From a virus, in IMG/VR virus record IMGVR_UViG_3300045988_182790: a DNA stretch of 64,000 nucleotides; one strand, given 5' to 3'. Shown here one piece after another: positions 9,109-40,886 of this stretch (the first letter of the stretch is position 1; each line of letters opens with the position of its first letter). The notes under the pieces are model-generated. The model worked only from the letters and a program-made list of their open reading frames with translations. It searched no databases and was not told where the DNA came from. The position numbers and the translations under genes were made by a program.

Positions 9109-10401
9109 TTATGCTGAAAATTCAATCAAATATTCAATTGTTGCCTGCTCTTCCCTATAAACGATAACTTCATCATTTACAAGGCGGCTCATTGAAGCTT
9201 TTTTTGAACTCATCGCCCACAGACAATCATGGTCTGGAACATTCTGCTCAAAATCAACTACGGTATTTGGCACATAATTGTTGTACTCTGTATCATTATA
9301 TACATCATACACCTTTCCAGTAGCGACTTTGAAAACAGCGAGATACCCTTTCGAACAATCTCCATGTGCCCAGTAAGAGCCGTATGAAGATGTATAACCA
9401 ATGGATTTTCTTGAGTATGGAGCAAAGTAAAGTCCATATCCAAACATCTTACCATGGATAGTTACACCATCTGGATTAAGATATAATCCATTAGTGATGA
9501 TTGACCACCAGTTAGGTGTTCCTGAACCATGAAATAGTCTTGTAACTCCATCACCATTAAGGTCAATTTTCCTGTTTTTACAGTATTCATTAAACCTTTC
9601 TTCTGTGGCAATGTTTTTAACTTTCCATGCTCTTAAGAACCTGCTTCTCTGGTCAGTCATCATTTCTTTAAGCATAGCAACCTCTTCGTCTGAACAAGAG
9701 GTCATTTCAATGCCATTTGTTTCAAGAATTGTCTTACCAGCCTCCTGTTTGTCAGAAGAACGAAGCATTGATTTTAAGAAATCAAGCAAATCCTGTTCCG
9801 CCTGAATAGTGTCACTAAACTGTTCTTTCGACAAACATTTATGCTTGTTCATATTCCTCATAACACGAGGTATAACAGTCCACAGTTCAAGCAGGTATCT
9901 GTTAAACTCTGGAACAGAAAGTTTATCTTTCTTATCCTGCAAGAGCTTAATGATTTCCTGAGCCTTCTGCAAATCTGCATCAGGAATATCAGTGATTTTT
10001 ACCGACGAGTACTGTTCTTCAATTACCTTATTGCAGGCATCAAGAAGAATCTGCACTATATCAGCAACATCTGGGTCATCAATAGGCTTTGTATTAGACG
10101 TAACAACCTCTTTTTCCTCAGCCTCTTCCGTTGCTACGACTTTGTAACCATGGTCAATCTGGCACCAAAAGGTATCATCCCATGTTTCTATAGGACATTT
10201 TCTCGCCTTAGGCGCTTTCCTACCATATTTGCGGCCAATATCACCGCTTATGAGCTGAAAGGTCTTTCCGTCTGAATCAGCCTTCATGGTGACTGTTTTG
10301 TTAACACCGTTCGTGGCATTAAACTTAACCAGCCTCATCTGGATATAGGTCTGGTTTGGAACAGCAATGACTGTTCCGTTTTCATCTTCGTACTGTTTCA
10401 T
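9109..10401 (-). CDS. PARP-like ADP-ribosyltransferase (WGR-like + helical + ART catalytic domain)
   Basis: C-terminal domain aligns with PARP1 catalytic motifs: LFHGSG (H-G-S), GKMFGYGLYFA (GxGxYFA), YSRKSIGY, and C-terminal NDEVIVY...IEYLIEF (compare PARP1 YNEYIVY...LKYLLKL with the catalytic Glu). Confidence 0.75.
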   Translation of the reverse strand: MKQYEDENGTVIAVPNQTYIQMRLVKFNATNGVNKTVTMKADSDGKTFQLISGDIGRKYGRKAPKARKCPIETWDDTFWCQIDHGYKVVATEEAEEKEVVTSNTKPIDDPDVADIVQILLDACNKVIEEQYSSVKITDIPDADLQKAQEIIKLLQDKKDKLSVPEFNRYLLELWTVIPRVMRNMNKHKCLSKEQFSDTIQAEQDLLDFLKSMLRSSDKQEAGKTILETNGIEMTSCSDEEVAMLKEMMTDQRSRFLRAWKVKNIATEERFNEYCKNRKIDLNGDGVTRLFHGSGTPNWWSIITNGLYLNPDGVTIHGKMFGYGLYFAPYSRKSIGYTSSYGSYWAHGDCSKGYLAVFKVATGKVYDVYNDTEYNNYVPNTVVDFEQNVPDHDCLWAMSSKKASMSRLVNDEVIVYREEQATIEYLIEFSA

Positions 10402-10442
10402 ATTTCTTCTCTCCTTTTAATACAAAAATTTGTTGTATAAGG

Positions 10443-10455
10443 AATATGAGATTTG
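10443..10455 (-). promoter_or_regulatory. class-A conserved upstream motif (example)
   Basis: CAAATCTCATATT on the gene strand about 40 nt before the ATG of the 9109-10401 gene. The same 10-13-mer recurs before more than 20 genes. Confidence 0.5.
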
Positions 10456-10505
10456 AGTACAAAAAAAAAGAGACACCGCTTAATGCGGTGTCTTTTTTGG
10501 TGTTA

Positions 10506-11567
10506 CTACAGAATTGTGACAATATCTCCTCTGTCGTAAGTCTTCTTACGAAGAAGAGTTTTTGTCTCGTAGCTCTCATTTGCCATAACATATGTCTCCT
10601 GAGAATTACGAATGTCACAATCGACAAGGTATGGGTAGCCTGCCAGTTCTGTAACAGCTGGAGCCTTTACCATCCTGTAGTTGTGTCCTCTGTTCTGGAA
10701 ATACAATGTATCACCAGCAAGGGCTACAACACTTCCGTCCTTGTCGAAAGTGATGCTGTCGGCAGGTGCCTTTGTGACAAAGCTGTATACTTCGTATCCA
10801 TCAGCATCCAAAATTGCCGTTGTGACATCATCCTTTGAAACAAGGATTCTGTTGTCGTAATCATCATAGCCGATGTAGTTTGTAGCGGTTGCTACAAGGA
10901 ACGACCTTGTTCCATTCTTCACTTCCTTAAGACTCTCAGGGTCAAAATTCATCGAACGGAACTGGATGTCACCATTCTCATATAAAGCCAGAGTGATGTC
11001 TTTTACAACATTTGCTGTGACTTTATTTCCGTCACCGTCAACAACATCTTCGCCGTCCTCATCAACAACAACCTCAGGGTCGATTGTGCGAAGAACCATT
11101 GCAAGTCTGTCGTCGGATAATGAAGTAACAGATACTCTACCAACTTCTCTCACAAGCTTTGTAAACTTGTCTGTAAGAGGCTTATAAGCAAACACCTCAA
11201 TGCGGTCATCCTTTGCATCTCTTGTCTTTGCTGACAGAATAATTTCGCCAGGCAATGTTGCAAGAATGTCAATGAACGACAGCTGGCCCTGCTCTGTTGC
11301 TGGCTCGCCACCACAAAGAAGCTCTCCATTGTAAATAGAGTAGCCAATTGGCTTATCCTGCTTGCCGTACTCGATGACGTCAAAGCAAGATTCTACAGAC
11401 TTGAGTGGAAGAACTACTTCGCTCTCTAAGTCGATGACCTCTTTGCCGTCAATGACATCGATTTTCTGGAGAGTTACCTCATCCTTGTCACTAACGTCTG
11501 CGACAAGCATAACCTCCTTTGTTATTTTGTTCAAAACTTTACTAGAAACTACGACTGTATTCTTCAT
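10506..11567 (-). CDS. hypothetical protein (353 aa)
   Basis: Intact ORF with class-A motif at 11610-11622. No motifs recognised. Sliding-clamp-like size but unsupported. Confidence 0.45.
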   Translation of the reverse strand: MKNTVVVSSKVLNKITKEVMLVADVSDKDEVTLQKIDVIDGKEVIDLESEVVLPLKSVESCFDVIEYGKQDKPIGYSIYNGELLCGGEPATEQGQLSFIDILATLPGEIILSAKTRDAKDDRIEVFAYKPLTDKFTKLVREVGRVSVTSLSDDRLAMVLRTIDPEVVVDEDGEDVVDGDGNKVTANVVKDITLALYENGDIQFRSMNFDPESLKEVKNGTRSFLVATATNYIGYDDYDNRILVSKDDVTTAILDADGYEVYSFVTKAPADSITFDKDGSVVALAGDTLYFQNRGHNYRMVKAPAVTELAGYPYLVDCDIRNSQETYVMANESYETKTLLRKKTYDRGDIVTIL

Positions 11568-11878: not shown

Positions 11879-13972
11879 TTAACGAACATTAAACAAATAC
11901 TCGCAGAAAATCCGCCTGCAATCTACATATGACGGACAATATTTTCTTTTGTGGATAAATCTGGCCACTTTATTAATGATTTTGCAAATAGCATATTCGT
12001 TTGCATGGAGTAGTTTATTGATAAACTCGTCTCTGCAAACAATATGTCCATTACAAGAAAAGTATTCCCAGCCTTTTGTTGTGCGAAGCTTGTCATACAT
12101 AGTACGAACATGGTCAATTGCTGTCAGCATCTCCTTATCGTATGAGCATAGTTCAAAGTCATTGGTTAACTCAGCATAAATTTCATCTATATTCTTGGTT
12201 GGTGTAAATGTGTCAGGGTATTCTGTATCATTTTTTTCTAAAGATGCTTTCATTCCGCGTATAATGAACGAAAAATGTCCATTTGTTACAGCTTTTGCAA
12301 TGTGCATGATATCGAAATATGCAGCATTAACAGACGTATCTATCTCATATGCTTTTGCAATCTGATTTAAGGCTTTACACACCTTTTCCTGCATATCTGC
12401 ATCAGCATAATCATATATATACGTCTTCATTTGTTTCATATTGTTAGCTCTGTTTTCTGGCAGCATTGTACGAAGATACTCAAGAAATGACAAACCATAG
12501 CCATATTTATCTTCATCTACTACTGGACTGTTAGAAAAATCTTCTTCTATAATGTCAAAGTCTATGCCATCTACATTGAATGTTGTAGGTTCACTTGCTG
12601 TTTTATTTGGCAAGTTAGTTTCATTTACATCCACATAGCTTTTTTTGGCACTTTTTTTATTTTTTAAAAACAGCTCACTTTCATAAGCTGCATTCCAGTC
12701 GATTTCTGAGAAATCTTTGATACTTCCCTTTGTATGTCCACAATCGTATTTCTTGGCAATTCTTTTTACGGTTCTAAGTGGAACTTTTGTAAGAAGAACT
12801 ACCTCATTATATGTATCACACTTTAAGATTGCCTGAACAACTACTTTGTCCCTATCAATTCTTTCACTGACAACCTTTTTGTGTTTTGCTTCCTTGCTTT
12901 CTTTTGATTCAAAGAAAAACGCGAATGTCTCATCCTTAGACAAATCAAGTCTGTCAATAATATACTGATTTGTCATCTTATAAGCATAGTTTCCGTTCTT
13001 TGCACTTGCAATAATGCCTCTTATCTCGTTATTGCTGATGCTGTAATCGGCAAATCCGTTATTAAATTCCTCAAGGGCGATAATTGCATCTTCCAATGGC
13101 ATAACAAGAATTGCTGTATGGAAGAAAATAAAACACAATGTATGATGTTTTGTAGACCAGTTTGTCCTACTATCACGCAAAGCAATAAGGTTCTCCAGTC
13201 TCTTTACAGCAAATTCTTCTATTGATTTTTTATTATGCTTTTTTGTCTTCTTTCCAGCATAAACAAACCCACAAATATCAGCTATTTCCGTGAGTGTGTA
13301 TTTTGCATCCTTGTTAAGCTCCAAGAGTCTACAGTATGTATGGGCTTCATAATTGTATGTACCAGGCAGTCTACAAAGTCTTGTTCCGTCCAGAACGCTT
13401 TTATCAACATCGAGAGTATCTTTGTCTCTTAAGATGTTTGCAATCTTGTTAGCAAGCTTTTTGTAAATAGCCTTGAAAAATCTTATCTGTTTTTCAGTAT
13501 CGCCAAATCCAGCAATAGATTTTGGCATGACAAAATACAGACCAAGGCCCCTGCCACTGTCTGTAAGCATTGTATAATTACATATTTCGTTGTTACTTAT
13601 AGCTTCTTTCAGCAAAGCTATTGTATTTTTCTTTCTCTTGGCAATCTCTTCGTCAGAGCTATTATGCGCATCCAAGTCAATGAAAAATCCATTGTAGCAG
13701 AATATCTTGTTCGATAATCTTCTATTTCCTGCAAATCTGTTAACAGTAATGTATGTATTTCCATTGTTTTCTGCAGAAATAAGTTTTTTAGGAACGCATG
13801 ATGCCAGAGGTTTTACTGACGGCTGTTTGTCCTTAAAACTGCACTTAATAATGGAACCCATATGATGAGTGCCATGCAATGTTTCTATGAAGTTTTTCTG
13901 CTCATTAAACAAAACATCTATTTCCATGCGTCTTGTCCTTTCGTATTTATTAGAAATATGAATTATGTACAA
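11879..13972 (-). CDS. primase-polymerase (AEP/PrimPol) domain protein with C-terminal extension
   Basis: Motif I FFIDLDAHN (hhhDhD); motif II TDSGRGLGLYFV; motif III RLCRLPGTYN. True start probably the internal MEIDVLF (ATG at 13929), which carries RBS AAAGGACAAGACGC and a class-A motif. Confidence 0.65.
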   Translation of the reverse strand: MYIIHISNKYERTRRMEIDVLFNEQKNFIETLHGTHHMGSIIKCSFKDKQPSVKPLASCVPKKLISAENNGNTYITVNRFAGNRRLSNKIFCYNGFFIDLDAHNSSDEEIAKRKKNTIALLKEAISNNEICNYTMLTDSGRGLGLYFVMPKSIAGFGDTEKQIRFFKAIYKKLANKIANILRDKDTLDVDKSVLDGTRLCRLPGTYNYEAHTYCRLLELNKDAKYTLTEIADICGFVYAGKKTKKHNKKSIEEFAVKRLENLIALRDSRTNWSTKHHTLCFIFFHTAILVMPLEDAIIALEEFNNGFADYSISNNEIRGIIASAKNGNYAYKMTNQYIIDRLDLSKDETFAFFFESKESKEAKHKKVVSERIDRDKVVVQAILKCDTYNEVVLLTKVPLRTVKRIAKKYDCGHTKGSIKDFSEIDWNAAYESELFLKNKKSAKKSYVDVNETNLPNKTASEPTTFNVDGIDFDIIEEDFSNSPVVDEDKYGYGLSFLEYLRTMLPENRANNMKQMKTYIYDYADADMQEKVCKALNQIAKAYEIDTSVNAAYFDIMHIAKAVTNGHFSFIIRGMKASLEKNDTEYPDTFTPTKNIDEIYAELTNDFELCSYDKEMLTAIDHVRTMYDKLRTTKGWEYFSCNGHIVCRDEFINKLLHANEYAICKIINKVARFIHKRKYCPSYVDCRRIFCEYLFNVR

Positions 13973-15564: not shown

Positions 15565-17583
15565 TTAATCAAAGAGTGATGCCTGAACAGCGCCTCTTAC
15601 GAGTCTGTCATACTCTTCTCTTTCAGCCTTCGTCATCGGACGAGACTTTGCCGTCATGTCGATGTTTTCATCATCTATAGCGGCGGCTTTTGCAGCGGCT
15701 CTCTTTTCTCTCGCTTTTGCATTACGAGCTAAACGTCTTTCCTCCTTACGGATTGCTTCCATAGGGTCATTTGGCACATAACTCTTCATGCTTGGGTCGA
15801 AGATTTCATACAACTCTTTGATGAACTGGTTATAAACCTTTCCATCAAATTCGTTCTGATAAAGAACATACTGTCCTGTAACGAAGAGTTTCTCTTTTGC
15901 TCTTGTCATAGATACAAACAAAAGTCTTCTCTTCTCTTCAACCTCATCCTGATGACGAGAATTATGAAGAATTTTACTGTCGTAACCAGAAATGGAGTTA
16001 ATGATAACTTTCCACTCAAGCCCCTTTGAAGAGTGAGCGGTTGTTAATGCAACTCCCTTGTACTTCATATCCATCTTAAGTTCAGTGTTTGCACCAAATC
16101 TTCTGAATTTCTGGATGAAGTCAAGTTCTGATACCAAATCTCCATTCTCGTATACCTGCTCAAGCCACTTAACATACAGTTCATCCTCCATATTAAGTGC
16201 TTCGAGATATTCATGGAAAATTTTCTGTTGCATACCGAGATTTAAGGAATCCATGTTTGAGAACTGACTTCTCATCTTATTGATTTCCTCGTTAATTTCA
16301 TCATCGGTAAGCTCTTCCAGAAGCTTTCCATCATATTTTGCCACTAAGTAGTTGAAGTATGACTGAGTTGCGTCGGCATCATAGAATGCATCCGCAAGAG
16401 AGATTGCAGCAGAAATTCTTGAGTTATCGATAAGCTTTACAGGAGCCATCATAACCCAGTCAATGCCAGCCTTTGACAGTGCGGCGGAAATTTTACCAAG
16501 TTCCTTCTTGGTCATTGCTATTACAGCAATGTCTTCTGGTTCATAACCCTCTTCAAGGAGCTTCTTAATCGTATTAACGATATAAGTCTGCTCATCTTCT
16601 TCATTGTAAAAGCCTCGGACTGAAGCACTTCCGCCTTTGCCCTTTGCCGCAACAAGAGTTTTATCAACCTTGTTTACATTGAGGGAAACCAACGCATTTG
16701 CTGGCTCTATGATTTCTTCGTAAGAGCGGTAATTTTCTGTCATGTAAAGTGATGTGACAGGCAATCCCATTTTCTCCTCGAATTTAATCATATTGTCAGG
16801 GTTTGCGTCTCTAAATCCATAAATTGACTGGTTATCGTCTCCAATAACCATAATGTCTTTAGGATTTGTTGCTGCAAGCCTACGTAGGAATTCCATCTGC
16901 ATATTTGACGAATCCTGAAATTCATCAACGACGATATGTTCAAATCCGTAAGAGGCAAGCTCTGTTGGAATCATATCGAGAACCTTTAACATTAAAGGCT
17001 CCTGGTCTGCAAATGTAATTAATCCATTTGCTTGTAGCAAGTCATTGTACTCCTGATACAAGTCAATGAGCATATCAACAGACTGATTGCTCATGTGCTT
17101 GTACAATCCTGCTGGGCGAAGCTGTTCGTCAATCAATTTCTGAGCCGCACCTGGTTCTGACAAATCAATGCCAGACTTTTTGATGAGCTTAAACGTTTTG
17201 ATTGCAATAGTCAGTGCCCCATACTGAGACTCAACCGCAACATTGTAATTAAGTCCATCAACCTTATCACGAGTAACCAAAGGTAAAATACCCATAGCCT
17301 CACGAGTCTGATTCGTGTCAACGACTGTAGGGACTTTCTGATAGCCAAGTTCTTTTGCATATTTCTTGACTATCTCCATCGCGAAAGCATTAAAGGTTAC
17401 AATCGGCATTTTATCAATGTCTATCTCGTAACCCTCTGACAGAAATGCTCCAGCAAGACGAGTTCTCATCTCGTTTGCAGCCGCGTCTGTAAATGTGATG
17501 AGCAAGAATTTCGATAAAATCTGCTCCAACCATGCAGTCTTCATTGCCTTTGTTGCTTCTCTTTTTTTATTGTTCTTTGCCAT
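15565..17583 (-). CDS. UvrD/PcrA-family helicase, C-terminal portion (motifs Ia-VI) lacking the P-loop
   Basis: Motif Ia ITFTDAAANEM; II VVDEFQDSS; III VIGDDNQSIYGFRDA; IV ENYRSYEEI; V TAHSSKGLEW; VI LLFVSMTRAKEKL. No GxGKT anywhere. Strong RBS plus class-A motif directly before its ATG. Confidence 0.8.
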   Translation of the reverse strand: MAKNNKKREATKAMKTAWLEQILSKFLLITFTDAAANEMRTRLAGAFLSEGYEIDIDKMPIVTFNAFAMEIVKKYAKELGYQKVPTVVDTNQTREAMGILPLVTRDKVDGLNYNVAVESQYGALTIAIKTFKLIKKSGIDLSEPGAAQKLIDEQLRPAGLYKHMSNQSVDMLIDLYQEYNDLLQANGLITFADQEPLMLKVLDMIPTELASYGFEHIVVDEFQDSSNMQMEFLRRLAATNPKDIMVIGDDNQSIYGFRDANPDNMIKFEEKMGLPVTSLYMTENYRSYEEIIEPANALVSLNVNKVDKTLVAAKGKGGSASVRGFYNEEDEQTYIVNTIKKLLEEGYEPEDIAVIAMTKKELGKISAALSKAGIDWVMMAPVKLIDNSRISAAISLADAFYDADATQSYFNYLVAKYDGKLLEELTDDEINEEINKMRSQFSNMDSLNLGMQQKIFHEYLEALNMEDELYVKWLEQVYENGDLVSELDFIQKFRRFGANTELKMDMKYKGVALTTAHSSKGLEWKVIINSISGYDSKILHNSRHQDEVEEKRRLLFVSMTRAKEKLFVTGQYVLYQNEFDGKVYNQFIKELYEIFDPSMKSYVPNDPMEAIRKEERRLARNAKAREKRAAAKAAAIDDENIDMTAKSRPMTKAEREEYDRLVRGAVQASLFD

Positions 17584-17683
17584 ATTCTTTTCCTCCTTTA
17601 ATATGTTTTTGTTTATATGACGATATAAATATGAAATTCAGACATAAAAATAAGGAGAGCTTATTACCCTCCTTATCGTTGTT

Positions 17684-17875
17684 CTAATCAGCAAGCATTT
17701 CTGCAACTTCTTTGCTAACACAAAGTACGTTATCAGAGATTGCTAAATTTCCTGTTCTGATTTTTGATTTTACATCTGTTTCTGAGATTTTATTTTCATT
17801 AAACAGAATAATAATGTCATCTTCGGGCTTCTTTTTTACCGCTACGGCCCTAAGGCGAGAATATGTTTTTGCCAT
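17684..17875 (-). CDS. hypothetical protein (63 aa)
   Basis: Small ORF inside the inserted segment. Begins MAK like several neighbouring genes. Confidence 0.3.
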   Translation of the reverse strand: MAKTYSRLRAVAVKKKPEDDIIILFNENKISETDVKSKIRTGNLAISDNVLCVSKEVAEMLAD

Positions 17876-17889
17876 AATATTTTTCCTTT

Positions 17890-19479
17890 CTACTCGTCTT
17901 CACCTACTGGTTTGCTTGTCTTATTTCCGAATAACTGTCTTGATGTGCTTGATGAAGCGTCATCAGCGTCAACAGCTTCATCGGTTTCATCGACTTCACT
18001 TTCTGCAGTCTCGGTTGTTTCGTCTGTTGTTTCATTCGTTGTTTCGCCTGTGATTTCTTCTGTGTTTTCTTCTGTTGTTTCATCTGATATCTCAGTTTCA
18101 TCTGTAACTTCTGGCACAGATTTTTCAACAATTTCCGTTATCATCCATGGATAATCCTCAGAAATTTCAAAATACGAGCCATCATCTTTTGTATAAACAA
18201 CACTATAAATTCCACCTTCAACAGGAATAACATCATATGTCGAATTATCTGGCAAGTAATATCTGATGTTTAAGAATTTTGTTGTGTCTACAACATTTGC
18301 TTCCATTTCATAGTAAACACCACTTGTTGTCTCGCTTGCGTATGATTTGGCTTCATTAAGATGCATGATTTTAATATCTTTGCTAAAAATGGTTAAATCG
18401 TCATCTGTTACAATGCCTTCTTCTAATTCACTCATGGCGTTGCTGCTCTCATCTGTTTCAGAAGCATGAATTAAAAATCCGTTTTCGTCAAACACATATC
18501 CAATCTTAGTTCCTTCTAGCTGACCATCTTTGTTATATGTGTAAATTGTTTCATTATAATAATCTGCATCCAGTTTTTCAGCTTCTTTTTCGGTTTTTAC
18601 ATTTGGCAAATATCTGTAGAAACCACCACCATTCATATTGTAATATCCGGCCGTAACATATTCAGGAATATTTAATTCCGCAATATGTTCTGTGATGAAA
18701 GTAAATGTGCCAAACATATATGTTTCAGCAGATGAAAAACAATGAATATTTGATGTTAAAACTGCATCAACTTTTTCTGTACCAGTTCTGATATCACATT
18801 GGTATTGCGTTAAAGGTTTTAAGTCCATAACAGTTCCCGATGGAGAAACATTTGCCGTCTCAACTTTTGTCCAGCCATCAGAATTATTGTTTTCTGCATT
18901 TTCTGTACTCTCTACCTGCTCAGTTTCTTGATTGTTGGTTAACTCTCTGAATGAAACAAAATAAATAGAGTCTGCATCCAGTGTATCAAATCCAATTGCA
19001 TCACTCGACGGCATTACATATCCACCTGATTCAGGGTCATATTTGTAATTTTTTGATATATCCTGCATTAATCCTGACACACCAAAACTGTAGCCATCAT
19101 CATAAAATTTTTCCAATGCATATTTTGTTGGGATAACAGTAGATGATTTATAAATCATCTTGTCACCTTCATAAAATGTTGGGATATAACCTTCATCAAT
19201 ATTGTAATTAACCCACGTAATTCTGTTTGGAAGTTCGCCTTTCGCAGAATCGTTTGCGTCTTCAAAAGTGTGGGGCGCCTGATATAATGGGTAGTATCTT
19301 GTCTCATTCTTTGTCTGATGTACTATGTAATAAGCATCATCTGGTAATTCTTCTTCTGAGACATAATAAGGCAACTCAATATCGTTTGGTGCGGTTTCGG
19401 CTGTTTGTGTTGTTCCGCATCCAGCAAAAGTGACTATTGTTGAAACACTCAGTAATAGAGCTAAAAGTTTTTTCTTCAT
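17890..19479 (-). CDS. lipoprotein with acidic T/E-rich C-terminal tail
   Basis: Lipobox LLSVSTIVTFAGC. C-terminal ETTEENTEEITGETTNETTDETTE low-complexity tail. Confidence 0.6.
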   Translation of the reverse strand: MKKKLLALLLSVSTIVTFAGCGTTQTAETAPNDIELPYYVSEEELPDDAYYIVHQTKNETRYYPLYQAPHTFEDANDSAKGELPNRITWVNYNIDEGYIPTFYEGDKMIYKSSTVIPTKYALEKFYDDGYSFGVSGLMQDISKNYKYDPESGGYVMPSSDAIGFDTLDADSIYFVSFRELTNNQETEQVESTENAENNNSDGWTKVETANVSPSGTVMDLKPLTQYQCDIRTGTEKVDAVLTSNIHCFSSAETYMFGTFTFITEHIAELNIPEYVTAGYYNMNGGGFYRYLPNVKTEKEAEKLDADYYNETIYTYNKDGQLEGTKIGYVFDENGFLIHASETDESSNAMSELEEGIVTDDDLTIFSKDIKIMHLNEAKSYASETTSGVYYEMEANVVDTTKFLNIRYYLPDNSTYDVIPVEGGIYSVVYTKDDGSYFEISEDYPWMITEIVEKSVPEVTDETEISDETTEENTEEITGETTNETTDETTETAESEVDETDEAVDADDASSSTSRQLFGNKTSKPVGEDE

Positions 19480-19581
19480 AGAATTATCCTTTCCATTTTT
19501 ATTTACAAATAATATGAAATATACAGAAATAAGTCTTTTGCATAAAGAAAAGAGCCTTTATTGGCTCTTCTCTATCTCATT

Positions 19582-20739
19582 TTACTCTGCGTCAGAAACG
19601 TATTCTTCACCATCAGAATCATCTTCTTCTGGAATTGGAATATCTTCACCGCTTTCGTATCTTCGCACCATATCTTCAAGTTCGCCTAAGCAAATCTGAA
19701 CAGTACGTTCTTTGATAGCGGTTTCGGTCTTGCCACTGCCAGCACCAGCATTTACAATGAAGATTTTCATTTCTTCATCACTGCCTCTGGCGTTGATGAT
19801 TGCCTGCTGTTCATCTGTCGGAGTGAGCTTTTCACGTTTTTTTACAACCATTTCCTCTGATTTTGTAGGAACTGGCTTGTAATAGCAAATTGCTCTCTTC
19901 GGACAGTATTTGCAATCCTTTTCCTCATCCATCTCCGATTTTTCATAGCCTGTAGCAAACTTATCGAGCTGTTCAAGGAAAATCTGGTCAAGGTGACTTA
20001 ATGGCTGCGGTATTGGGTTGCCATCATTATCTACAAGATTTGTATAATCCTCAGACAATTCCCTGATTGGAGCATTGTTAAAGTAATCATCATTGATGAT
20101 TAAATCCGTGGACTTGTCTGATGGTTTTTTCATATAATAATATGAAGCAACCACTTTTCTTTTCTCGCCAGCTGGAACAAGCTCTCGAAGTGCCCTGAGC
20201 ATAAGATATAACGGAATTTCGTTTTCCGCATTTCTCTTAGCTCTTGTTGTTGTTCCAAGCTGAGGTAAGCCTTTCTTCGCAACTATGCCTTCGAGTGTTT
20301 TACCATCGTCAAAGATGGCAAGAAAACGCACGGAGATATCGTCTGCTCCCTCAAAGTCGGTTTTTACAAAGTCAGATATATCCAACTTAATTGGATTTTC
20401 TGCTTCCATAACGGCGACTTTTACACCTCTGTTATTACCGACAATTCGCTTCTCCGACTTCATGTAACGAAGAAGGCACTTTGCAAATGCTCTTTCATAG
20501 CTTTGCTGAGTTACATCAATATCATCAATTTCAACGTAACTTTCAGCGATGATTTTTTGCAAATCATCAAGGTCTTTTACCTGAAAGTCGCTCTTAAGAA
20601 AATCTCTTAAAATGCCATTCATTATAACAGCTTCATCGAGATGGCGATTTGCCCTTGTAGCTGTTTTCTGAATGCCTTCTCCTTTCTGATGTTCTACACA
20701 GGCAGCTTCTCTATCGAAGCTTGATAATGTCATCCCCAT
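19582..20739 (-). CDS. PD-(D/E)xK/Cas4-like nuclease domain fused to UvrD helicase N-terminal motifs (Q + Walker A)
   Basis: C-terminal FIVNAGAGSGKTETAI matches UvrD motif I, preceded by TDEQQAIIN (Q-motif-like). Upstream Cys cluster CKYCPKRAICYY resembles the RecB/Cas4 Fe-S motif. The ORF ends about 35 aa after the P-loop. Confidence 0.6.
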   Translation of the reverse strand: MGMTLSSFDREAACVEHQKGEGIQKTATRANRHLDEAVIMNGILRDFLKSDFQVKDLDDLQKIIAESYVEIDDIDVTQQSYERAFAKCLLRYMKSEKRIVGNNRGVKVAVMEAENPIKLDISDFVKTDFEGADDISVRFLAIFDDGKTLEGIVAKKGLPQLGTTTRAKRNAENEIPLYLMLRALRELVPAGEKRKVVASYYYMKKPSDKSTDLIINDDYFNNAPIRELSEDYTNLVDNDGNPIPQPLSHLDQIFLEQLDKFATGYEKSEMDEEKDCKYCPKRAICYYKPVPTKSEEMVVKKREKLTPTDEQQAIINARGSDEEMKIFIVNAGAGSGKTETAIKERTVQICLGELEDMVRRYESGEDIPIPEEDDSDGEEYVSDAE

Positions 20740-20936
20740 ATCTTTTTCCTGCTACTCAAAATGTGATTAAATATACTCATCACATCGAGAAATTGTAAGT
20801 TCTCACGAACATTACTTACTGCTTCATCGTGTATGTTCTCGATTGGATAAATCCATATCTACTAACAGGTTCTTGTACACTCCACAGTCGTTAATTCCTG
20901 CGATAGCCCGCAGTACATACTTACGTTTGCGTTTAA

Positions 20937-22115
20937 TTATGCAACTTCGTAAGTTATAGCGTCTCTCAAATTAAGACTTGCATTGAAATCCCTATCTTCA
21001 ACATAGCCACATTTACATCTGTAAACTCTATCTGAAAGCTTTAAATCTTTCTTGATACAGCCACAGCAATGACAAGTTTTTGAAGATGGATAAAATCTAT
21101 CTACAATTCTTAATTCAATACCATTATCATCGCATTTAGCTTTAAGCTTTGTTCTAAACTCATAGAATTTCTGCGATGCAACAGCTTTTGAAAGATGTCT
21201 GTTCTTCATCATTCCTGATACATTCAAATCTTCAATCGTTATGTAAGATGGCTTGGTTTTCACTATCTCAGCGATTGTTTTATTGATATAATCGGTACGG
21301 ATATTATCCATTTTATGATGAAGTTTCTGTACTTTGAGCTTTTGTTTCTGTATATTCGCTCTTTGAGTAGTCTCTCCTTTCTTTAAATTTTCATATTTAC
21401 GAGAAAGACTTCTCTGTTCTCGAATTAATTGTTTTTCCAGTTTCTTAACTTTGCCAGACTTGTTAATGTTCTTGTATTTTTTGCCATCAGAAATGATAGC
21501 AAAGTCCTTCAATCCAAGGTCAATTCCAATTCCTTCATTCGAATTATTGGCAATTTCAGGATTAGGTATTTCTACAAGAACAGATACATAATATCTACCA
21601 GCTTTTATTGAAACTGAACCGCTTTTTATCACATAACCATCTTTTGTCGTTGGGATGTATCCTTTTTCTTTGATACGCACCCAGCCAAGCGTTGGTATGT
21701 TAATTCTATGTCTTTCGCAATAACAATCTTTTGGATTATTTTTGACGAAATACATTTTCACATCGGACTTGTCTTTCTTTTTAAATTTTGGAAAGGCTGC
21801 TTGATGCTTAAAAAATTTTGTAAAAGCGGTACACCCATTTTCGATTGAGCGTTTTACAGACTTTGAGCTAACTTCTTTAATCCAAGAATATTCAGGATGA
21901 TTTGGAAGATATTCGTTGTTAAGCCAAACACTAAATGACTTACCACTCATAAACTTTTCACCTTTTGAGTAAAGCTCTTTGTTGTGAGCAAGATAGAAAT
22001 TGTAAACATATCTACAGGTTCCTATTGTCTTGTTAATTTTGACCTTTTGCTCTTCTGTTGGATTGATTTCTGTCTTGAAGCTCTTTAACTTTGTTGACTT
22101 GTTCATATTTTTCAC
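20937..22115 (-). CDS. tnpB: TnpB (OrfB_IS605, RuvC-like + zinc finger)
   Basis: C-terminal CHCCGC...CKCG zinc finger and DRDFNASLNL RuvC-III motif. Class-A motif at 22149-22161. Confidence 0.8.
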   Translation of the reverse strand: MKNMNKSTKLKSFKTEINPTEEQKVKINKTIGTCRYVYNFYLAHNKELYSKGEKFMSGKSFSVWLNNEYLPNHPEYSWIKEVSSKSVKRSIENGCTAFTKFFKHQAAFPKFKKKDKSDVKMYFVKNNPKDCYCERHRINIPTLGWVRIKEKGYIPTTKDGYVIKSGSVSIKAGRYYVSVLVEIPNPEIANNSNEGIGIDLGLKDFAIISDGKKYKNINKSGKVKKLEKQLIREQRSLSRKYENLKKGETTQRANIQKQKLKVQKLHHKMDNIRTDYINKTIAEIVKTKPSYITIEDLNVSGMMKNRHLSKAVASQKFYEFRTKLKAKCDDNGIELRIVDRFYPSSKTCHCCGCIKKDLKLSDRVYRCKCGYVEDRDFNASLNLRDAITYEVA

Positions 22116-22237
22116 CTCCTTTGATTATTTTTTTATCAACACATTTTTAATATGAGATTTGAAAATAAAATAAGGCTACTAAAAAACAATGTCATTAAGT
22201 ATTTTTTGGTAATCGACTGCCTGATATGTCTAAAATT

Positions 22238-28820: not shown

Positions 28821-29519
28821 TTACTTCACGTCAATGTCTACTGGATTTTCAAGTTTCAATAAATCATCTCTGTGTTCGACGAGTGCAGCGCTCGCGATGG
28901 AATTTACTTTATTTTGGCAGAAAGCTTCAATTTCGCCTTTTGCTTCCATAACTGTTTTATCCATCTGCTCATTGAACTGGTCAGCAATAAAATCCATATT
29001 GCATCCAATATCCATACTCAGTTTTGATAATTTACTAAGTATTTCTTGTCTATCTGCTTTTGTTAAATTCTTTTTCTGTTCAAACATTTCAGATACAGAA
29101 TTAATAAGTTCCTGAGACTGCTCGGTGATTTTCTTACGTTTTTGCTTAAATTCATCAGTAAACTGTTCTCTCTTGCTCACAAAATCACAAGGAGGAATTT
29201 TACCATCCTTTTCTGTCCAGCGAATAGTAACAGGAACTCCACTTCCCATATTCATAGAAGTAATTGCTTCTGCGAACTGTGAATAACTCATTTCTACTTC
29301 TGCAATTACTTTGTTTCCACAAACATGGTCTTCATGCAACCCCCTTGTAACATTTGCATGATACAATGTCATTGCAATTGTATCTCTGTGTTCAATGCTA
29401 CTTCCAAATAAAGGTGTCGCTCCACCTGTCCTTCTACTAAAAGCCAATGTTCCATAACTCGGATGGCTTGTCTTTGTACCAAACTGTGTTTCTTCTGTTT
29501 TATAATTATTGTCTGCCAT
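28821..29519 (-). CDS. hypothetical protein (232 aa)
   Basis: Intact ORF. Its promoter/leader (29520-29585) and first codons (MADNN) are duplicated at 17584-17645 in front of the UvrD C-terminal part (MAKNN). Confidence 0.5.
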   Translation of the reverse strand: MADNNYKTEETQFGTKTSHPSYGTLAFSRRTGGATPLFGSSIEHRDTIAMTLYHANVTRGLHEDHVCGNKVIAEVEMSYSQFAEAITSMNMGSGVPVTIRWTEKDGKIPPCDFVSKREQFTDEFKQKRKKITEQSQELINSVSEMFEQKKNLTKADRQEILSKLSKLSMDIGCNMDFIADQFNEQMDKTVMEAKGEIEAFCQNKVNSIASAALVEHRDDLLKLENPVDIDVK

Positions 29520-29590
29520 ATTCTTTTCCTCCTTTAATGTATTTTTTATTTATATGACGATATAAATATGAAATTTGAATGTATGTGAAC

Positions 29591-38202: not shown

Positions 38203-40479
38203 TTACATGGCTACGATTTTTACGTCGTACCCATTCTCTGTTAATCTACCAACGACATCTGTAGATACTGTGAACTCTGTCTGACTTATATCAGACATTT
38301 CCTGCGTGTAAATTCTAAAGAAAAGTCCTGTTGTAAGGTCTGTTTCTTTATATCCCTGCGCAAAATTATAGATATTACACATATCTTCAATAGTTGGCGC
38401 AACAGCAAGAATTATTTTTGCCTGCTTATCAAGGACATTAAAGCTGTCAATAACAATCTGGTCTTCACCATTATTATCTGTGTCTTTATGTCCAATGATT
38501 TTTGTGATTGTTCCTGACTGAATGAGATTTTGATATTTCTCATAGGTTTTAGGAAAGCAAACGCCACTGATACTCTCTCCATCTTTGTCAGTGATTGTTA
38601 CAAATGCCATTTTGTCACCTTTTTTGGTTTTAATAACCTTTGCATCAGTGATGATTGCTGCCATTTTGACATTCGCTTTTTCATCTGCATTAACAATATC
38701 ATTGATAATCATGAGATTTGCGGTATCATAATCCTCTAAAGGATTTCCAGTAACCCACATTCCAAGAGCATCTACTTCTAAAAGAAGTCTTTTTTCTGTA
38801 GATAATGGGGCAACGTGTTTCTTTATAATACCTTTCATCTCATCACGAAGAATACTAAGTTCTCCCTGATATTTTCTAAGGTCAAGAACACGTTTGTTTT
38901 CCGCTTTCTCGTTTGTATATGACTGGTTTTCAAGCAAAGATATTTTTTCAATCTTCGTTTTAGCTTTTTTCCATACATCATCATAAGCCACAACATCAGT
39001 TGCACTTATTTCTCTGTTGATTGTGAAATCATCGCAAGCTCCAGAGTTAATAAGTTTTGCCACACAAGAAGCTCCGATTGTTGTTTTTTCAACAATCTCT
39101 TCGATTGAACGGAAATTGCCAGCTTTTTCTCTGTCTGCAACCAATACTTCTGCCGCACTCTTTAACCCTTTGATTGCTTTAAATCCTATTATGATGCCAT
39201 CTTTATATGGGTAATAATCTGCTTTGGATTCATTAATGTCTGGTCTATAAAGAGTGATGTTTGAAGCTTTACAATCAGCAACAAGCTGAGCTGTTTTGTC
39301 TGGTTGCCAGCCTATTATTGCGCACAAATATTCGCGCTTATAATGATATTTAAGCCATGCTGTAATATAAGATACAAGCGCATATGCTGCAGCGTGGGAT
39401 TTATTGAAACCATATTTAGCGAAAGGCATTAACTGGTCAAATAACCAATTTGCATCCTCTTCTGAAATATTTTGAGTTTCTTTACATCCTGTTACGAAAT
39501 CTGGTCTGACAGCGGCCAACTCTTCCTCATGTTTTTTGCTCATATGTCTTCTAACATTATCAGCATCACCCATGTCAAAGCCTGCCGCAGTTGTCATAAT
39601 GCTCATTACCTGCTCCTGATATACTGGGAACCCATATGTTTCAGACAAAATTGGTTCAAGAAAAGGGAATTTCTCCACAAATGGAGATTTTCTTCCAGTA
39701 TTCTTACAGTCAATAATGTCATCAATAAAATCCATTGGGCCAGGTCTGTATACAGAGATAGCAAGGATAATATCTTCGAAACAAGTAGGGTTAAGTCTTG
39801 TTAGCATCCCCTTCATTCCATCAGATTCTACCTGAAATACAAAGTTTGTATCTCCTTTAGCGTAAATATTCTGGAACACTTCTGTTTCAAAAGGAAGATT
39901 ATATGGCTCAATCTTTATGCCCTTTGTTTCGGTGATAATATGCATTGCATCAGTAATAGCATTAAGGTTTTTAAGCCCTAAGAAGTCCATTTTGATAAAT
40001 CCTAACTGGCCTTCGCACTGAACCATATCTGCTTGAACAGCAAATACTTCATTTCCATCATCATCGTTTGATTTCATAAGAGGTATATAATTCTCTACGT
40101 CAGTTCCATCAGAAATAATAATTCCTGCGGCGTGTGTTCCGTATGATGTTATATAGTTCTCAATCATCATTGCATAATCAATGATTGTCAGCGCTGTTTC
40201 ATTGCCGCTAAATTCAGCTTTCAACTCGTTTTCGTAATTAACGAGTTTTGCATTTGGTTCATCACCGATTAATTTACGCATTGACTTGTAAATGGAAATA
40301 TATTTCTTTTTATCTCCGCTCTCTTCAAGTCCAAGAAGCTTTGGTGCGTACTCAAGCGCGCTTTTTGCAGCAAGACGATTTTTTGTCATAATGTTTGCCA
40401 CAGAACGTTCACCGTATTTTTCCTTGACATATTTGATAGTGATTTCTCTTGCATGAGCTGAGAAATCTGTGTCAATATC
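38203..40479 (-). CDS. dnaE: DNA polymerase III alpha (DnaE-type) exon 2
   Basis: Begins DIDTDF (DnaE consensus DIDIDF). Contains GFNKSHAAAYALVSY (DnaE FNKSHSAAYA motif), fingers/thumb regions, and a C-terminal OB-like region. Confidence 0.85.
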   Translation of the reverse strand, partial: DIDTDFSAHAREITIKYVKEKYGERSVANIMTKNRLAAKSALEYAPKLLGLEESGDKKKYISIYKSMRKLIGDEPNAKLVNYENELKAEFSGNETALTIIDYAMMIENYITSYGTHAAGIIISDGTDVENYIPLMKSNDDDGNEVFAVQADMVQCEGQLGFIKMDFLGLKNLNAITDAMHIITETKGIKIEPYNLPFETEVFQNIYAKGDTNFVFQVESDGMKGMLTRLNPTCFEDIILAISVYRPGPMDFIDDIIDCKNTGRKSPFVEKFPFLEPILSETYGFPVYQEQVMSIMTTAAGFDMGDADNVRRHMSKKHEEELAAVRPDFVTGCKETQNISEEDANWLFDQLMPFAKYGFNKSHAAAYALVSYITAWLKYHYKREYLCAIIGWQPDKTAQLVADCKASNITLYRPDINESKADYYPYKDGIIIGFKAIKGLKSAAEVLVADREKAGNFRSIEEIVEKTTIGASCVAKLINSGACDDFTINREISATDVVAYDDVWKKAKTKIEKISLLENQSYTNEKAENKRVLDLRKYQGELSILRDEMKGIIKKHVAPLSTEKRLLLEVDALGMWVTGNPLEDYDTANLMIINDIVNADEKANVKMAAIITDAKVIKTKKGDKMAFVTITDKDGESISGVCFPKTYEKYQNLIQSGTITKIIGHKDTDNNGEDQIVIDSFNVLDKQAKIILAVAPTIEDMCNIYNFAQGYKETDLTTGLFFRIYTQEMSDISQTEFTVSTDVVGRLTENGYDVKIVAM

Positions 40480-40886
40480 CATTCATACCCTCGGTTTCCC
40501 GATATTTTGACTTTTAGGGGACTAGACTATATCTCGCTATTTAAAATAGCATGATGCACTTCGGTTAAGTATTCATCTCTTAACCTACTCTACTCGATTC
40601 GTCCTTAATAGGCTTATTCTCTTATTACTAAGAGTTACATTTATTAGTTCTTTCGATAGTCGTTACACTTTTGTTTATAATGTAATAAACACTTAGCACG
40701 GTATCACCTGCTATCTGTTTCCAGACCGTAGGCTCTCTTACGAAGCGGATTCGTCTATGGATTAAGCTGTATATCTCGTTGTGACGCTTCATACAGCAGT
40801 CTTATCTAGCTTCTACCGTTAGCACGTAACTCTTAGGCTACGCACACCCTTGAAAAAAGGTTCACATCATACGCCCAATATAGTTT
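40480..40886 (-). other. group I self-splicing intron (ORF-less, about 407 nt) in dnaE
   Basis: Exon 1 ends ...RVSMP (cct) and exon 2 starts DIDTDF, restoring the conserved RVSMPDIDxDF. Intron GGGCGT 11 nt in can pair with exon AUGCCU to form P1 with a U·G at the splice site. The last intron nt is G. AGATATAGTC is present (group I S-element-like). Confidence 0.65.

What the first reader, a model, noticed from the sequence alone, without database searches (positions are those of the whole stretch)
15565..20739. UvrD-type nuclease-helicase split by a 2-kb insertion carrying a lipoprotein gene
The 19582-20739 ORF has a Cas4/RecB-like Cys motif and ends with the UvrD Q-motif and Walker A (FIVNAGAGSGKTETAI). 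It stops about 35 codons later.

The rest of the helicase (motifs Ia-VI) is in the 15565-17583 ORF, which has no P-loop at all. Between the halves lie a lipoprotein gene and a 63-codon ORF, each with its own class-A promoter motif.

Both halves keep a copy of the helix after motif I (TETAIKERTVQI versus TKAMKTAWLEQI). The downstream half acquired a promoter-RBS-MAKNN leader that is a near-copy of the one in front of the 28821-29519 gene.

This could be a two-subunit helicase reconstituted in trans, or a helicase inactivated by cassette insertion.
Basis: partly seen in the sequence, partly recalled or inferred. Interest (0 to 1): 0.7.

Follow-up and report, generated by a model that had tools for sequence, protein, structure and literature searches.

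The report
Helicase-nuclease permanently split into two genes
A plasmid-borne DNA helicase-nuclease has its ATP-binding loop on one gene and the rest of the motor on another; a whole lineage of gut-bacterial plasmids has kept this split under selection, so it is probably a working two-piece (in one lineage three-piece) enzyme, not a gene broken by an insertion.

Summary
The core observation is real. ORF 19582-20739 (-) encodes a Cas4/RecB-like four-cysteine nuclease domain plus the helicase Q motif and Walker A. ORF 15565-17583 (-) encodes UvrD/PcrA-type motifs Ia-VI and has no P-loop. A lipoprotein gene and a 63-codon ORF lie between them.

The split is not recent damage.
- About 25 C-half and about 16 N-half protein clusters share the same break point, at 36-87% identity to the window.
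- Split C-halves form one clade (100/100 NJ bootstrap) nested inside an intact 930-1000-aa family.
- Every catalytic motif is invariant in both halves, and dN/dS is about 0.07.
- Split N-halves carry a conserved post-P-loop tail that intact relatives lack.
- The DNA between the halves differs by lineage: lipoprotein, DUF5688, or the halves are unlinked. One Rep_3 plasmid lineage has three scrambled pieces.

Best reading: an obligate heteromeric helicase-nuclease whose ATP site is built from two polypeptides. This is inferred from sequence and not shown biochemically.

- The 63-codon ORF has no promoter motif of its own.
- The "duplicated helix" is supported by position and predicted structure only.
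- An IS607-type TnpB element abuts the N-half start codon.
- The window's apparent second split gene (dnaE) is probably interrupted by a ~407-nt intron.

The parts
19582..20739 (-). N-half (385 aa): Cas4/RecB-like four-cysteine nuclease domain, then Q motif (Q311), strand beta1 and Walker A (G334-T338), helix alpha1 and a conserved tail (about 339-367), then a variable acidic end.
15565..17583 (-). C-half (672 aa): basic head plus a short helix (residues about 1-23), then motif Ia (LLITFTDAAANEM), motif II DEFQD (220-224), motif III GDDNQSIYGFR (248-258), motifs V and VI, a basic tail and a C-terminal QASLF motif. No Walker A.
17890..19479 (-). Gene between the halves: predicted lipoprotein (signal peptide ending in the lipobox FAGC), 529 aa, no family match. 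Conserved at 63% identity in the closest relative, with dN/dS 0.12.
17684..17875 (-). 63-codon ORF, 14 nt downstream of the lipoprotein stop codon. No promoter motif of its own and no family match.
19511..19519 (-). Promoter-like motif TTTCATATT in front of the lipoprotein gene.
19543..19568 (-). Terminator-like hairpin (AGAGCC-AATAAA-GGCTCT followed by a T-run) directly after the N-half stop codon.
   Evidence: Read directly from the sequence. Not reported by the stricter scan.
17649..17677 (-). Intrinsic-terminator-like hairpin after the 63-codon ORF. It closes the inserted transcription unit.
17578..17638 (-). Promoter motif (17628-17636), AT-rich leader, RBS AAAGGAGG and the first codons of the C-half. 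A near-copy lies at 29514-29575.
   Evidence: 62 nt, 93.5% identity, E 7e-19.
29514..29575 (-). Second copy of the promoter/leader/start module, in front of the 232-aa ORF at 28821-29519.
20740..22115 (-). IS607/IS605-type TnpB gene (20937-22115), its RAGATH-18 RNA (20816-20888; taken to be the omega-RNA type, from my own knowledge) and the right end of the element, which abuts the N-half ATG.
   Evidence: The DNA match to an Agathobacter rectalis plasmid IS ends at window position 20740, and in that plasmid the same end abuts the pflA start codon.
22149..22157 (-). Promoter-like motif upstream of TnpB. It may be the original N-half promoter, displaced by the IS insertion (inference).

Best explanation
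The two ORFs are the two subunits of an anciently split nuclease-helicase carried by plasmid-like elements of gut Clostridia/Lachnospiraceae.

The ancestor was a single protein of about 950 aa: an N-terminal Cas4/RecB-type four-cysteine nuclease domain followed by a UvrD/PcrA-type SF1A motor. In one lineage the gene broke once, in the loop after the first helix of RecA-like domain 1A. The result is two subunits:
- Subunit N carries the nuclease domain, the Q motif, strand beta1, the Walker A loop and helix alpha1.
- Subunit C carries motif Ia, Walker B (DEFQD), motif III, the arginine-finger motifs and all DNA-binding domains.

Each subunit is now its own transcription unit, with a terminator, a plasmid-specific promoter and a strong RBS.

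The proposed mechanism is inferred, not shown:
- The beta1/P-loop/alpha1 element of N docks into the incomplete domain 1A of C and rebuilds a composite ATP site, so ATPase and unwinding need both proteins.
- The tail conserved only in split N-halves (E-L-x3-V-x-R-Y-E-x-G-E-D-I, acidic) and the basic head plus short helix of C probably act as assembly elements. The precedent is the tails of the phage Aeh1 split NrdA.

The lipoprotein and 63-codon cassette is simply what occupies the gap between the halves in this sub-lineage.
For: Shown by tool results:
- Complementarity: the halves are complementary against Pfam, PADLOC and PDB profiles and against intact homologues.
- Shared break point: 28 of the 120 best C-half homologues lack Walker A, and about 25 of these start 20-30 residues before motif Ia. 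17 N-half clusters of 329-429 aa end soon after the P-loop.
- Distinct N-half group: an exhaustive profile search of 1.84 billion representatives finds about 16 short N-halves that match through the tail. Scores then drop sharply to intact proteins of roughly 900-1070 aa that match only up to about profile position 345.
- Single origin: split C-halves are monophyletic (100/100 NJ bootstrap) and nested inside the intact forms.
- Invariant catalytic residues: in N the four Cys, Q311 and GxGKT; in C motifs Ia, II, III, V and VI.
- Purifying selection against the closest relative: C-half dN 0.10, dS 1.6, ratio 0.065. N-half dN 0.15 with dS saturated.
- Retained despite rearrangement: N-DUF5688-C in L001-L004, L034 and L129-L135. 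C then N 5.9 kb downstream in L120. Three scrambled pieces in L125, with the first two pieces also seen in L126 and the first in L127.
- Co-divergence: identity to the window falls together for N and C (79/86, 56/71, 39/45, 40/44%).
- Independent expression signals: each half has its own promoter and RBS in every lineage examined.
- Structure prediction: an AlphaFold2 model of N fused to C has pLDDT 86 and pTM 0.79, and matches PcrA/UvrD/Rep over about 720 alignment columns. The P-loop segment 320-334 has pLDDT below 50 when N is modelled alone and 79-93 in the fusion.
Against: - No biochemical evidence exists. Physical association and ATPase activity are inferred.
- The AlphaFold2 fusion model used intact homologues in its alignment, so correct placement of the P-loop was largely built in.
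- In four lineages (L006, L113, L116, L119) no N-half lies within 10 kb of the C-half, and in L128 no C-half lies near the N-half. Co-occurrence on the same replicon is therefore unproven there.
- In this window a TnpB element sits between the likely N-half promoter and the N-half ATG, so expression of N here depends on read-through.
- The nuclease catalytic motif is not a canonical D...ExK. The conserved residues are E150 and K155.
Confidence: 0.75

Rival explanations
1. The halves have become functionally independent. N is a stand-alone nuclease whose P-loop segment serves another role. C is an ATPase-dead DNA-binding scaffold (like AddB or RecC) or works with some other partner.
For: - The halves are often unlinked, more than 10 kb apart or in different order.
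- In L167 an N-half is followed by ClpX/ClpP genes, with no C-half in the remaining 2.2 kb of the contig.
- Inactive SF1 folds used as scaffolds are well known in AddB and RecC (established knowledge).
Against: - Walker A GxGKT and Q311 are invariant in all 17 N-halves.
- Walker B DEFQD, motif III and motifs V and VI (which include the arginine finger) are invariant in all 22 C-halves. Degenerate scaffolds such as AddB and RecC lose these motifs.
- The N-half P-loop segment is predicted disordered on its own.
- Divergence of N and C tracks together.
Confidence: 0.13
2. A recent insertion of the lipoprotein cassette inactivated the helicase gene, and the two ORFs are decaying pseudogene fragments.
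For: - A 2-kb cassette with its own promoter and terminator lies exactly between the halves.
- Mobile DNA (TnpB) is adjacent.
Against: - The same split occurs in relatives down to 43% identity, with different or no adjacent cassette.
- The split forms are monophyletic.
- dN/dS is about 0.07 with saturated dS.
- There are no frameshifts or internal stops, all catalytic motifs are invariant, and the tail is conserved.
Confidence: 0.03
3. An intact protein or gene is restored by splicing or rearrangement: a split intein, RNA trans-splicing, or site-specific excision of the intervening DNA as in the sigK skin element.
For: - Genes fractured by split inteins are known in metagenomes (PMC2677866).
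- The same window seems to contain an intron-interrupted dnaE.
Against: - No intein blocks are present. The N tail is 47 aa with no conserved Cys/Ser1, and the C head has no terminal HN plus Cys/Ser/Thr.
- Rfam finds no intron RNA in the region.
- No Pfam domain of any kind, and so no recognisable recombinase, is encoded between the halves.
- The halves overlap in alignment rather than abut.
- In relatives the halves are unlinked, reordered or in three pieces.
Confidence: 0.03

Closest known systems
Split ribonucleotide reductase NrdA-a/NrdA-b of Aeromonas phage Aeh1 ("genes in pieces"; Crona et al. 2011, PMC3045599)
   Same: - An essential-type enzyme gene is fragmented into two separately translated genes with foreign DNA between them.
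- Function is kept by non-covalent assembly.
- New C- and N-terminal tails at the break are required for activity. Here the counterparts are a conserved tail on N and a basic head on C.
   Different: - There the intervening gene is a homing endonuclease (mobE) and the split is confined to one phage.
- Here the gap holds ordinary cargo (lipoprotein or DUF5688). The split defines a whole diversified clade, the halves have become unlinked, and one lineage has a third fission.
- The enzyme is a different one, and the break lies inside a RecA-like ATPase domain.
Heterodimeric helicase-nucleases AdnAB, AddAB and RecBCD
   Same: - UvrD-like SF1A motor combined with a RecB-family nuclease, which in AddB carries an Fe-S cluster.
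- They work as multi-subunit complexes.
   Different: - In those enzymes each subunit is a complete helicase-like polypeptide with the nuclease at its C-terminus.
- Here a single motor is divided between two chains, and the nuclease sits N-terminal, on the chain that carries only the P-loop.
- All NCBIfam scores are far below the AddA, RecB, PcrA and UvrD cut-offs.
Dna2 (Fe-S nuclease N-terminal to an SF1 helicase)
   Same: - Same domain order in the intact ancestor: an N-terminal four-cysteine PD-(D/E)XK nuclease followed by an SF1 helicase.
   Different: - Dna2 has an SF1B (5'-3') motor. This family is SF1A, UvrD-like.
- Dna2 is a single chain.
Fractured genes with split inteins (Dassa et al. 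2009, PMC2677866)
   Same: Replication and repair genes are found in two pieces with an inserted gene between them, in metagenomic mobile DNA.
   Different: No intein halves and no homing endonuclease are present here, so the product cannot be ligated.
UvrD-Cas4 fusions and unfused Cas4-like plus UvrD operons of Clostridiales (Hudaiberdiev et al. 2017, PMC5704561)
   Same: A Cas4-family nuclease is associated with a UvrD-like helicase. The paper notes an unfused pair in Clostridiales that is not in a defence context.
   Different: - The described fusions are written UvrD-Cas4.
- In the passages I read, the paper does not mention the P-loop residing on the nuclease protein.
- I did not test whether their Clostridiales operon is this family.

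Membership tests
SF1A UvrD/PcrA/Rep-like helicase | Q motif and motif I (Walker A GxGKT) | tested here: met
   Present only in the N-half (Q311, G334-T338). They align to PcrA residues 11-41 and AdnB residues 26-65.
SF1A UvrD/PcrA/Rep-like helicase | Motifs Ia, II (DExQD), III, V, VI and the 1A/1B/2A/2B domain architecture | tested here: met
   Present only in the C-half. Pfam UvrD-helicase E 3e-39 (profile positions 47-269) and UvrD_C E 6e-30. PDB profile hits to UvrD1, PcrA and UvrD at 1e-45 to 1e-50. Foldseek match to PcrA/UvrD over about 720 alignment columns for the fused model.
SF1A UvrD/PcrA/Rep-like helicase | All motor motifs on one polypeptide | tested here: not met
   Motif I and motifs Ia-VI are on separate ORFs 2 kb apart, each with its own start, stop, promoter and terminator.
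PcrA / UvrD / Rep / AddA / RecB equivalogs (NCBIfam) | Score above the curated equivalog cut-off | tested here: not met
   Best hit is pcrA at 197 bits against a cut-off of 911. All others are also far below cut-off, for intact homologues too.
Cas4/RecB-family PD-(D/E)XK nuclease with Fe-S cluster | Four cysteines: one N-terminal plus C-x2-C-x5-C | tested here: met
   C14, C276, C279 and C285 are invariant in 17 N-halves and in intact homologues. Actual cluster binding is not testable here.
Cas4/RecB-family PD-(D/E)XK nuclease with Fe-S cluster | RecB-like nuclease fold | tested here: met
Cas4/RecB-family PD-(D/E)XK nuclease with Fe-S cluster | Canonical catalytic D...(D/E)xK and a Pfam PF12705 score above gathering | tested here: inconclusive
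   PDDEXK_1 scores 17.7 bits against a cut-off of 22. The conserved residues are D120, E150 and K155, with E-x4-K spacing rather than ExK.
Split-intein "fractured gene" | N-intein (Cys/Ser1, blocks A and B) at the end of the first half; C-intein ending in HN followed by Cys/Ser/Thr at the start of the second half | tested here: not met
   The 47-aa tail has no conserved first Cys/Ser. The head is 20-30 aa with no HN plus nucleophile (alignments).
Homing-endonuclease "genes in pieces" | A free-standing homing endonuclease gene between the halves | tested here: not met
   The intervening ORFs have no Pfam or NCBIfam hit (the lipoprotein was also scanned against PADLOC with no hit) and no HNH, GIY-YIG or LAGLIDADG domain. 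In L001 an HNH gene lies upstream of the N-half, not between the halves.
Gabija GajB | UvrD-like GajB encoded next to GajA (OLD-family ATPase-TOPRIM nuclease) | tested here: not met
   PADLOC hits to GajB models are generic UvrD similarity, and the intact homologues behave the same way. No OLD/TOPRIM-type gene appears among the neighbours scanned or in relatives' annotated contexts.
Developmentally excised intervening element (skin-like) | A site-specific recombinase inside the insert, and halves that abut precisely | tested here: not met
   No recombinase domain lies between the halves. The halves overlap in alignment. No flanking repeats beyond the promoter motif. Relatives have unlinked halves.

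The most novel reading that the evidence does not exclude
These Clostridial plasmids repeatedly fragment a single ATPase motor into separately promoted genes and keep it working. There are two pieces in most of the clade. In one Rep_3 lineage there are three scrambled pieces, with Walker A, Walker B and the arginine-finger half on three different polypeptides. On this reading the composite ATP site would act as an expression-level AND gate: the nuclease-helicase is active only when independently regulated cassettes are transcribed together. The conserved N tail and C head would be a newly evolved docking module for complementation inside a domain.
Probability: 0.2. Interest if true: 0.8.

Novelty: new variant of a known kind. 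Interest (0 to 1): 0.62.

Why it matters
Natural gene fissions usually fall between domains. Here the break lies inside the RecA-like core of an SF1 helicase, between the P-loop and motif Ia. It has been stably inherited through deep divergence (about 45% identity) with every catalytic residue intact.

If the pieces do assemble, three things follow:
- It would be a natural example of an ATP site shared between polypeptides in a motor that is normally one chain. I found no described case in the literature searches.
- It would provide natural split points and candidate docking tails for engineering split helicases.
- It would be a tractable system for asking how gene fission is tolerated and then fixed in mobile elements.

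The three-piece, scrambled version in a pig-gut plasmid lineage makes the case stronger. The finding also shows that annotation pipelines call these genes "hypothetical protein" and "PcrA-like helicase" without noticing that the latter lacks a P-loop.

Tried and rejected
- Megablast of the locus against phage and plasmid collections gave only a TnpB/IS match to an Agathobacter rectalis plasmid.
- tblastn against PLSDB found only intact, distant homologues. The best is on the 361-kb Butyrivibrio proteoclasticus B316 plasmid (NC_014389.1) at 35% identity. No complete plasmid with the split form is available there.
- The genome and IMG/VR scans returned almost only intact relatives.
- P0039 and P0064 looked like an independent split right after GKTEC. 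They are helicase genes truncated by an unrelated high-GC junction, so I rejected them.
- The 616-aa AAA_19 protein upstream of the C-half in L116 is an unrelated complete helicase-nuclease, not an N-half.
- P0013 is a chimera of a C-half with the homologue of the window's 697-aa ORF. I did not use it.
- The apparent second split gene, dnaE, was examined as possible evidence for general protein-level fragmentation. I rejected that reading because the exons join seamlessly at ...RVSMP|DIDTDF, which looks like an intron. Rfam does not recognise the intervening RNA.
- No long direct or inverted repeats flank the lipoprotein cassette.
An unpaired alignment was used instead.
- Literature searches for a split UvrD-type helicase found nothing. 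The Hodor megaplasmid preprint does not mention it.


Full report
**1. What is in the window**

- The 385-aa ORF (19582-20739) has one N-terminal cysteine and a C-x2-C-x5-C cluster, a weak PD-(D/E)XK match (17.7 bits against a cut-off of 22), a Q motif and GAGSGKT. It stops 47 codons after the P-loop threonine.
- The 672-aa ORF (15565-17583) matches Pfam UvrD-helicase only from profile position 47 onward, plus UvrD_C. It contains no Walker A.
- Against PDB and PADLOC profiles the N-half covers PcrA residues 11-41 and GajB-type profile positions 3-39. The C-half starts at profile position 48.
- When both are added to an alignment of intact 930-1000-aa homologues they tile it end to end. They meet at the helix that follows the P-loop.

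Between the halves lie a 529-aa predicted lipoprotein gene and a 63-codon ORF. Neither has any family match.

**2. Transcription signals**

A motif TYTCATATT occurs 24 times in the window against 5.8 expected, and none of 100 shuffles reaches that count. It lies 35-50 nt upstream of 13 of the 40 ORF starts examined. These include the lipoprotein gene, the C-half and the TnpB gene.
- The N-half is followed by a hairpin and T-run (read).
- The 63-codon ORF is followed by a terminator at 17677-17649.
- The 63-codon ORF begins 14 nt after the lipoprotein stop codon and has no motif of its own.

Upstream of the N-half there is no such motif. Instead there is a TnpB gene (20937-22115) with a RAGATH-18 RNA at 20816-20888. 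DNA homology to an IS607-family element of an Agathobacter rectalis plasmid ends at window position 20740, one base before the N-half ATG. In that plasmid the same IS end abuts the pflA start codon. I infer that the motif at 22149-22157 was the N-half promoter and that the IS landed between it and the gene.

**3. The split is old and conserved**

A search of 5.8 billion proteins with the C-half found intact homologues of 930-1000 aa with the nuclease domain in front. Among the 120 best hits, 28 lack Walker A. About 25 of those start 20-30 residues before motif Ia with a similar head (consensus ...T-K-x-x-K-x-x-W-x-E-x-L-L-S-K-F-L-L-I-T-F-T-D-A-A-A), at 43-87% identity to the window.

The N-half search found 17 clusters of 329-429 aa (36-100% identity), all ending shortly after the P-loop.

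An exhaustive profile search of 1.84 billion representatives found about 16 short proteins that match the whole profile including the tail (bits 545 to 229). Scores then drop to intact proteins of roughly 900-1070 aa that match only up to about profile position 345.

A neighbour-joining tree of the motor region places all split forms in one clade with 100/100 bootstrap support, nested among intact forms. That indicates one fission event followed by diversification.

**4. Both halves are under purifying selection**

- In the C-half alignment, motifs Ia, II (DEFQD), III (GDD-Q-SIY-FR), V (T-H-S-KGLE) and VI (RRLLFV-TRA) are invariant.
- In the N-half alignment the four cysteines, Q311 and G-x-G-K-T-E are invariant.
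- Against the closest relative (L123/L124): C-half dN 0.10, dS 1.6, ratio 0.065. N-half dN 0.15 with dS saturated. Lipoprotein ratio 0.12.
- Split N-halves share a conserved stretch after the P-loop, ETAIKQRTV-I-x3-EL-x3-V-x-RYE-x-GEDI. Intact homologues have nothing equivalent there.

**5. What lies between the halves varies**

| Lineage | Arrangement |
|---|---|
| Window and closest relative (L124) | N, lipoprotein; in the window then the 63-codon ORF and C (the L124 contig ends after the lipoprotein gene) |
| P0003 lineage (N 56%, C 71% identity); many human-gut samples, one MAG labelled uncultured Eubacterium sp. | N, DUF5688 gene, C |
| L120 | C first, N 5.9 kb downstream, eight genes between |
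| L006, L113, L116, L119 | no N-half within 10 kb of C |
| L128, L167 | N-half present, no nearby C |
| L125 (with L126 and L127); pig-gut plasmid contigs carrying Rep_3 and ParA, L125 and L127 also Mob_Pre | three genes in scrambled order |

In L125 the three genes are:
- N at 10001-11254.
- A 442-aa piece at 16220-17548 that starts at motif III (MSIKSIMVIGDDAQSIYAFR).
- A 247-aa piece from 21018 that carries the head and motifs Ia-II.

L126 shows N and the motif III-VI piece before its contig ends. L127 shows N only.

In every lineage each piece has its own lineage-specific promoter-like motif and a strong RBS. Neighbouring genes in relatives include ParAB, Rep_3, Mob_Pre, TrbL/PrgI/VirB4-type conjugation genes, SSB, topoisomerase and sigma factors. 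These mark the elements as plasmids or conjugative elements of gut Clostridia. The window itself adds a RecD2-like helicase, PARP, PhoH-PIN, DnaE and Tad-like secretion genes.

**6. Structure**

An AlphaFold2 model of N fused to C has mean pLDDT 86 and pTM 0.79. The alignment combined intact homologues with unpaired N and C families. The model's features at the junction are:
- Strand beta1 at residues 325-331.
- One long helix at 337-362, which is alpha1 plus the conserved tail.
- A low-confidence linker.
- The C-half head helix at 397-408 (pLDDT 82-92), leading into strand 411-415 and motif Ia.

Foldseek aligns the model to PcrA, UvrD and Rep over about 720 columns.

Caveats: the intact homologues in the alignment largely fix the position of the P-loop.

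**7. Interpretation**

The data fit an obligate heteromeric nuclease-helicase. The ATP site would be assembled from the P-loop and Q motif of N and from Walker B, motif III and the arginine fingers of C. The acidic conserved tail of N and the basic head of C are candidate assembly elements. The precedent is the phage Aeh1 split NrdA, whose break-point tails are essential for activity (PMC3045599). This mechanism is inferred from conservation and has not been demonstrated.

The rivals fare as follows:
- Recent inactivation is excluded by sections 3-5.
- Splicing or excision is excluded for four reasons. There are no intein blocks. No intron RNA and no recombinase are detected. The halves overlap in alignment. 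In relatives the halves are unlinked.
- Independent function of the halves remains possible. However, it does not explain why ATPase motifs that are each useless without the other stay invariant.

How the fission arose is open. One possibility is insertion of a promoter-bearing cassette into the alpha1-beta2 loop. The adjacent N-X-C order is kept in the sub-clade that is sister to all other split forms in the tree. The other possibility is duplication followed by complementary truncation.

**8. Comparison with known systems**

The motor is SF1A, UvrD/PcrA-like, but it is not an equivalog of PcrA, UvrD, Rep, AddA or RecB. The intact ancestor has Dna2-like domain order with a UvrD-like motor.

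Gene fission and "genes in pieces" are known from T4-like phages, from fractured genes with split inteins (PMC2677866) and from Nanoarchaeum (the last from my own knowledge). This case differs in four ways:
- The break is inside the RecA-like domain.
- No homing endonuclease or intein is involved.
- The split persists across a whole clade, and the halves have become unlinked.
- One lineage has a further fission into three scrambled pieces.

Literature searches for a split UvrD-type helicase found nothing. The Cas4 phylogenomics paper mentions unfused Cas4-like plus UvrD operons in Clostridiales. The passages I read do not note a displaced P-loop.

I rate it a new variant of a known kind, with moderately high interest.

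**9. Side observations**

- **dnaE:** It appears as two ORFs, 40833-42533 and 38203-40482. The coding sequence joins seamlessly at ...RVSMP|DIDTDF if 407 nt (40886-40480) are removed. The upstream exon ends in U and the intervening sequence ends in G. Relatives L008 and L029 are uninterrupted. The RNA folds with z = -2.3. This looks like an ORF-less group I-type intron, although Rfam does not detect one.
- **C-terminal motif:** The C-half and many intact homologues end in a motif S-R-x-M-T...Q-x-[ST]-[LM]-F. It resembles the beta-clamp-binding pentapeptide QL[SD]LF, a resemblance recalled from my own knowledge and only a lead.

Noticed in passing
window 38203-42533 (-); intervening sequence 40480-40886: The DNA polymerase III alpha (DnaE-like) gene appears as two ORFs that split at Pfam profile position 102/103. 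The exons join seamlessly at ...RVSMP|DIDTDF, in a highly conserved stretch of the polymerase, once 407 nt are removed. The 5' exon ends in U and the insert ends in G. Relatives L008 and L029 are uninterrupted, and the RNA folds with z = -2.3. This is probably an ORF-less group I-type intron, though Rfam finds nothing.
   Followed up: partly
L125 10001-21254 (also L126, L127): In a pig-gut plasmid lineage carrying Rep_3, ParA and Mob_Pre, the same helicase is in three separately promoted genes in scrambled order. N (nuclease plus Walker A) is first. A 442-aa piece with motifs III-VI comes 5 kb downstream. The 247-aa head plus motif Ia-II piece comes a further 3.5 kb downstream.
   Followed up: partly
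window 20740-22157 (-): A TnpB-only IS607/IS605-type element with a RAGATH-18 RNA sits directly against the N-half start codon. The same IS end abuts the pflA ATG in an Agathobacter rectalis plasmid. A plasmid-type promoter motif lies just upstream of TnpB, so the IS may have landed between the N-half and its promoter. A second TnpB gene is at 55975-57246.
   Followed up: partly
window-wide, e.g. 8149, 10443, 11611, 15499, 17628, 19511, 22149, 29565, 37030, 42575, 59589: The element-specific promoter-like motif TYTCATATT occurs 24 times against 5.8 expected. It lies 35-50 nt upstream of many minus-strand genes, usually after a terminator hairpin and before the RBS AAAGGAGG. Relatives use lineage-specific variants (for example CCATATTTATTCTG in L001 and L006) and encode their own sigma factors.
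   Followed up: partly
window 15571-15585 (C-half residues 667-671, QASLF): The C-terminus of the C-half and of many intact and split homologues carries S-R-x-M-T...Q-x-[ST]-[LM]-F. It resembles the beta sliding-clamp-binding motif QL[SD]LF, which would tie the enzyme to replication. 16 of 55 distinct C-termini fit a loose pattern. The resemblance is recalled from knowledge and was not tested.
   Followed up: no
P0013 (632 aa; contig of 105,622 bp): One relative encodes a chimera. The first ~440 residues are a P0003-type C-half. The rest is homologous to the window's 697-aa ORF at 11879-13972. This implies a deletion or recombination joining the two genes, or a misassembly.
   Followed up: no
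window 18011-18095: Five overlapping copies of a 25-nt unit at 12-nt (once 24-nt) spacing, a 12-nt periodicity, lie in the 3' part of the lipoprotein gene. They encode an acidic, threonine-rich E/T/D tail.
   Followed up: no
window 28821-29575: The 232-aa ORF with no family match shares the 62-nt promoter/leader/start module with the helicase C-half at 93.5% identity. That looks closer than the partial orthologous leader visible in relative L123, judged by eye and not measured, which would suggest recent copying of the module within this element.
   Followed up: partly
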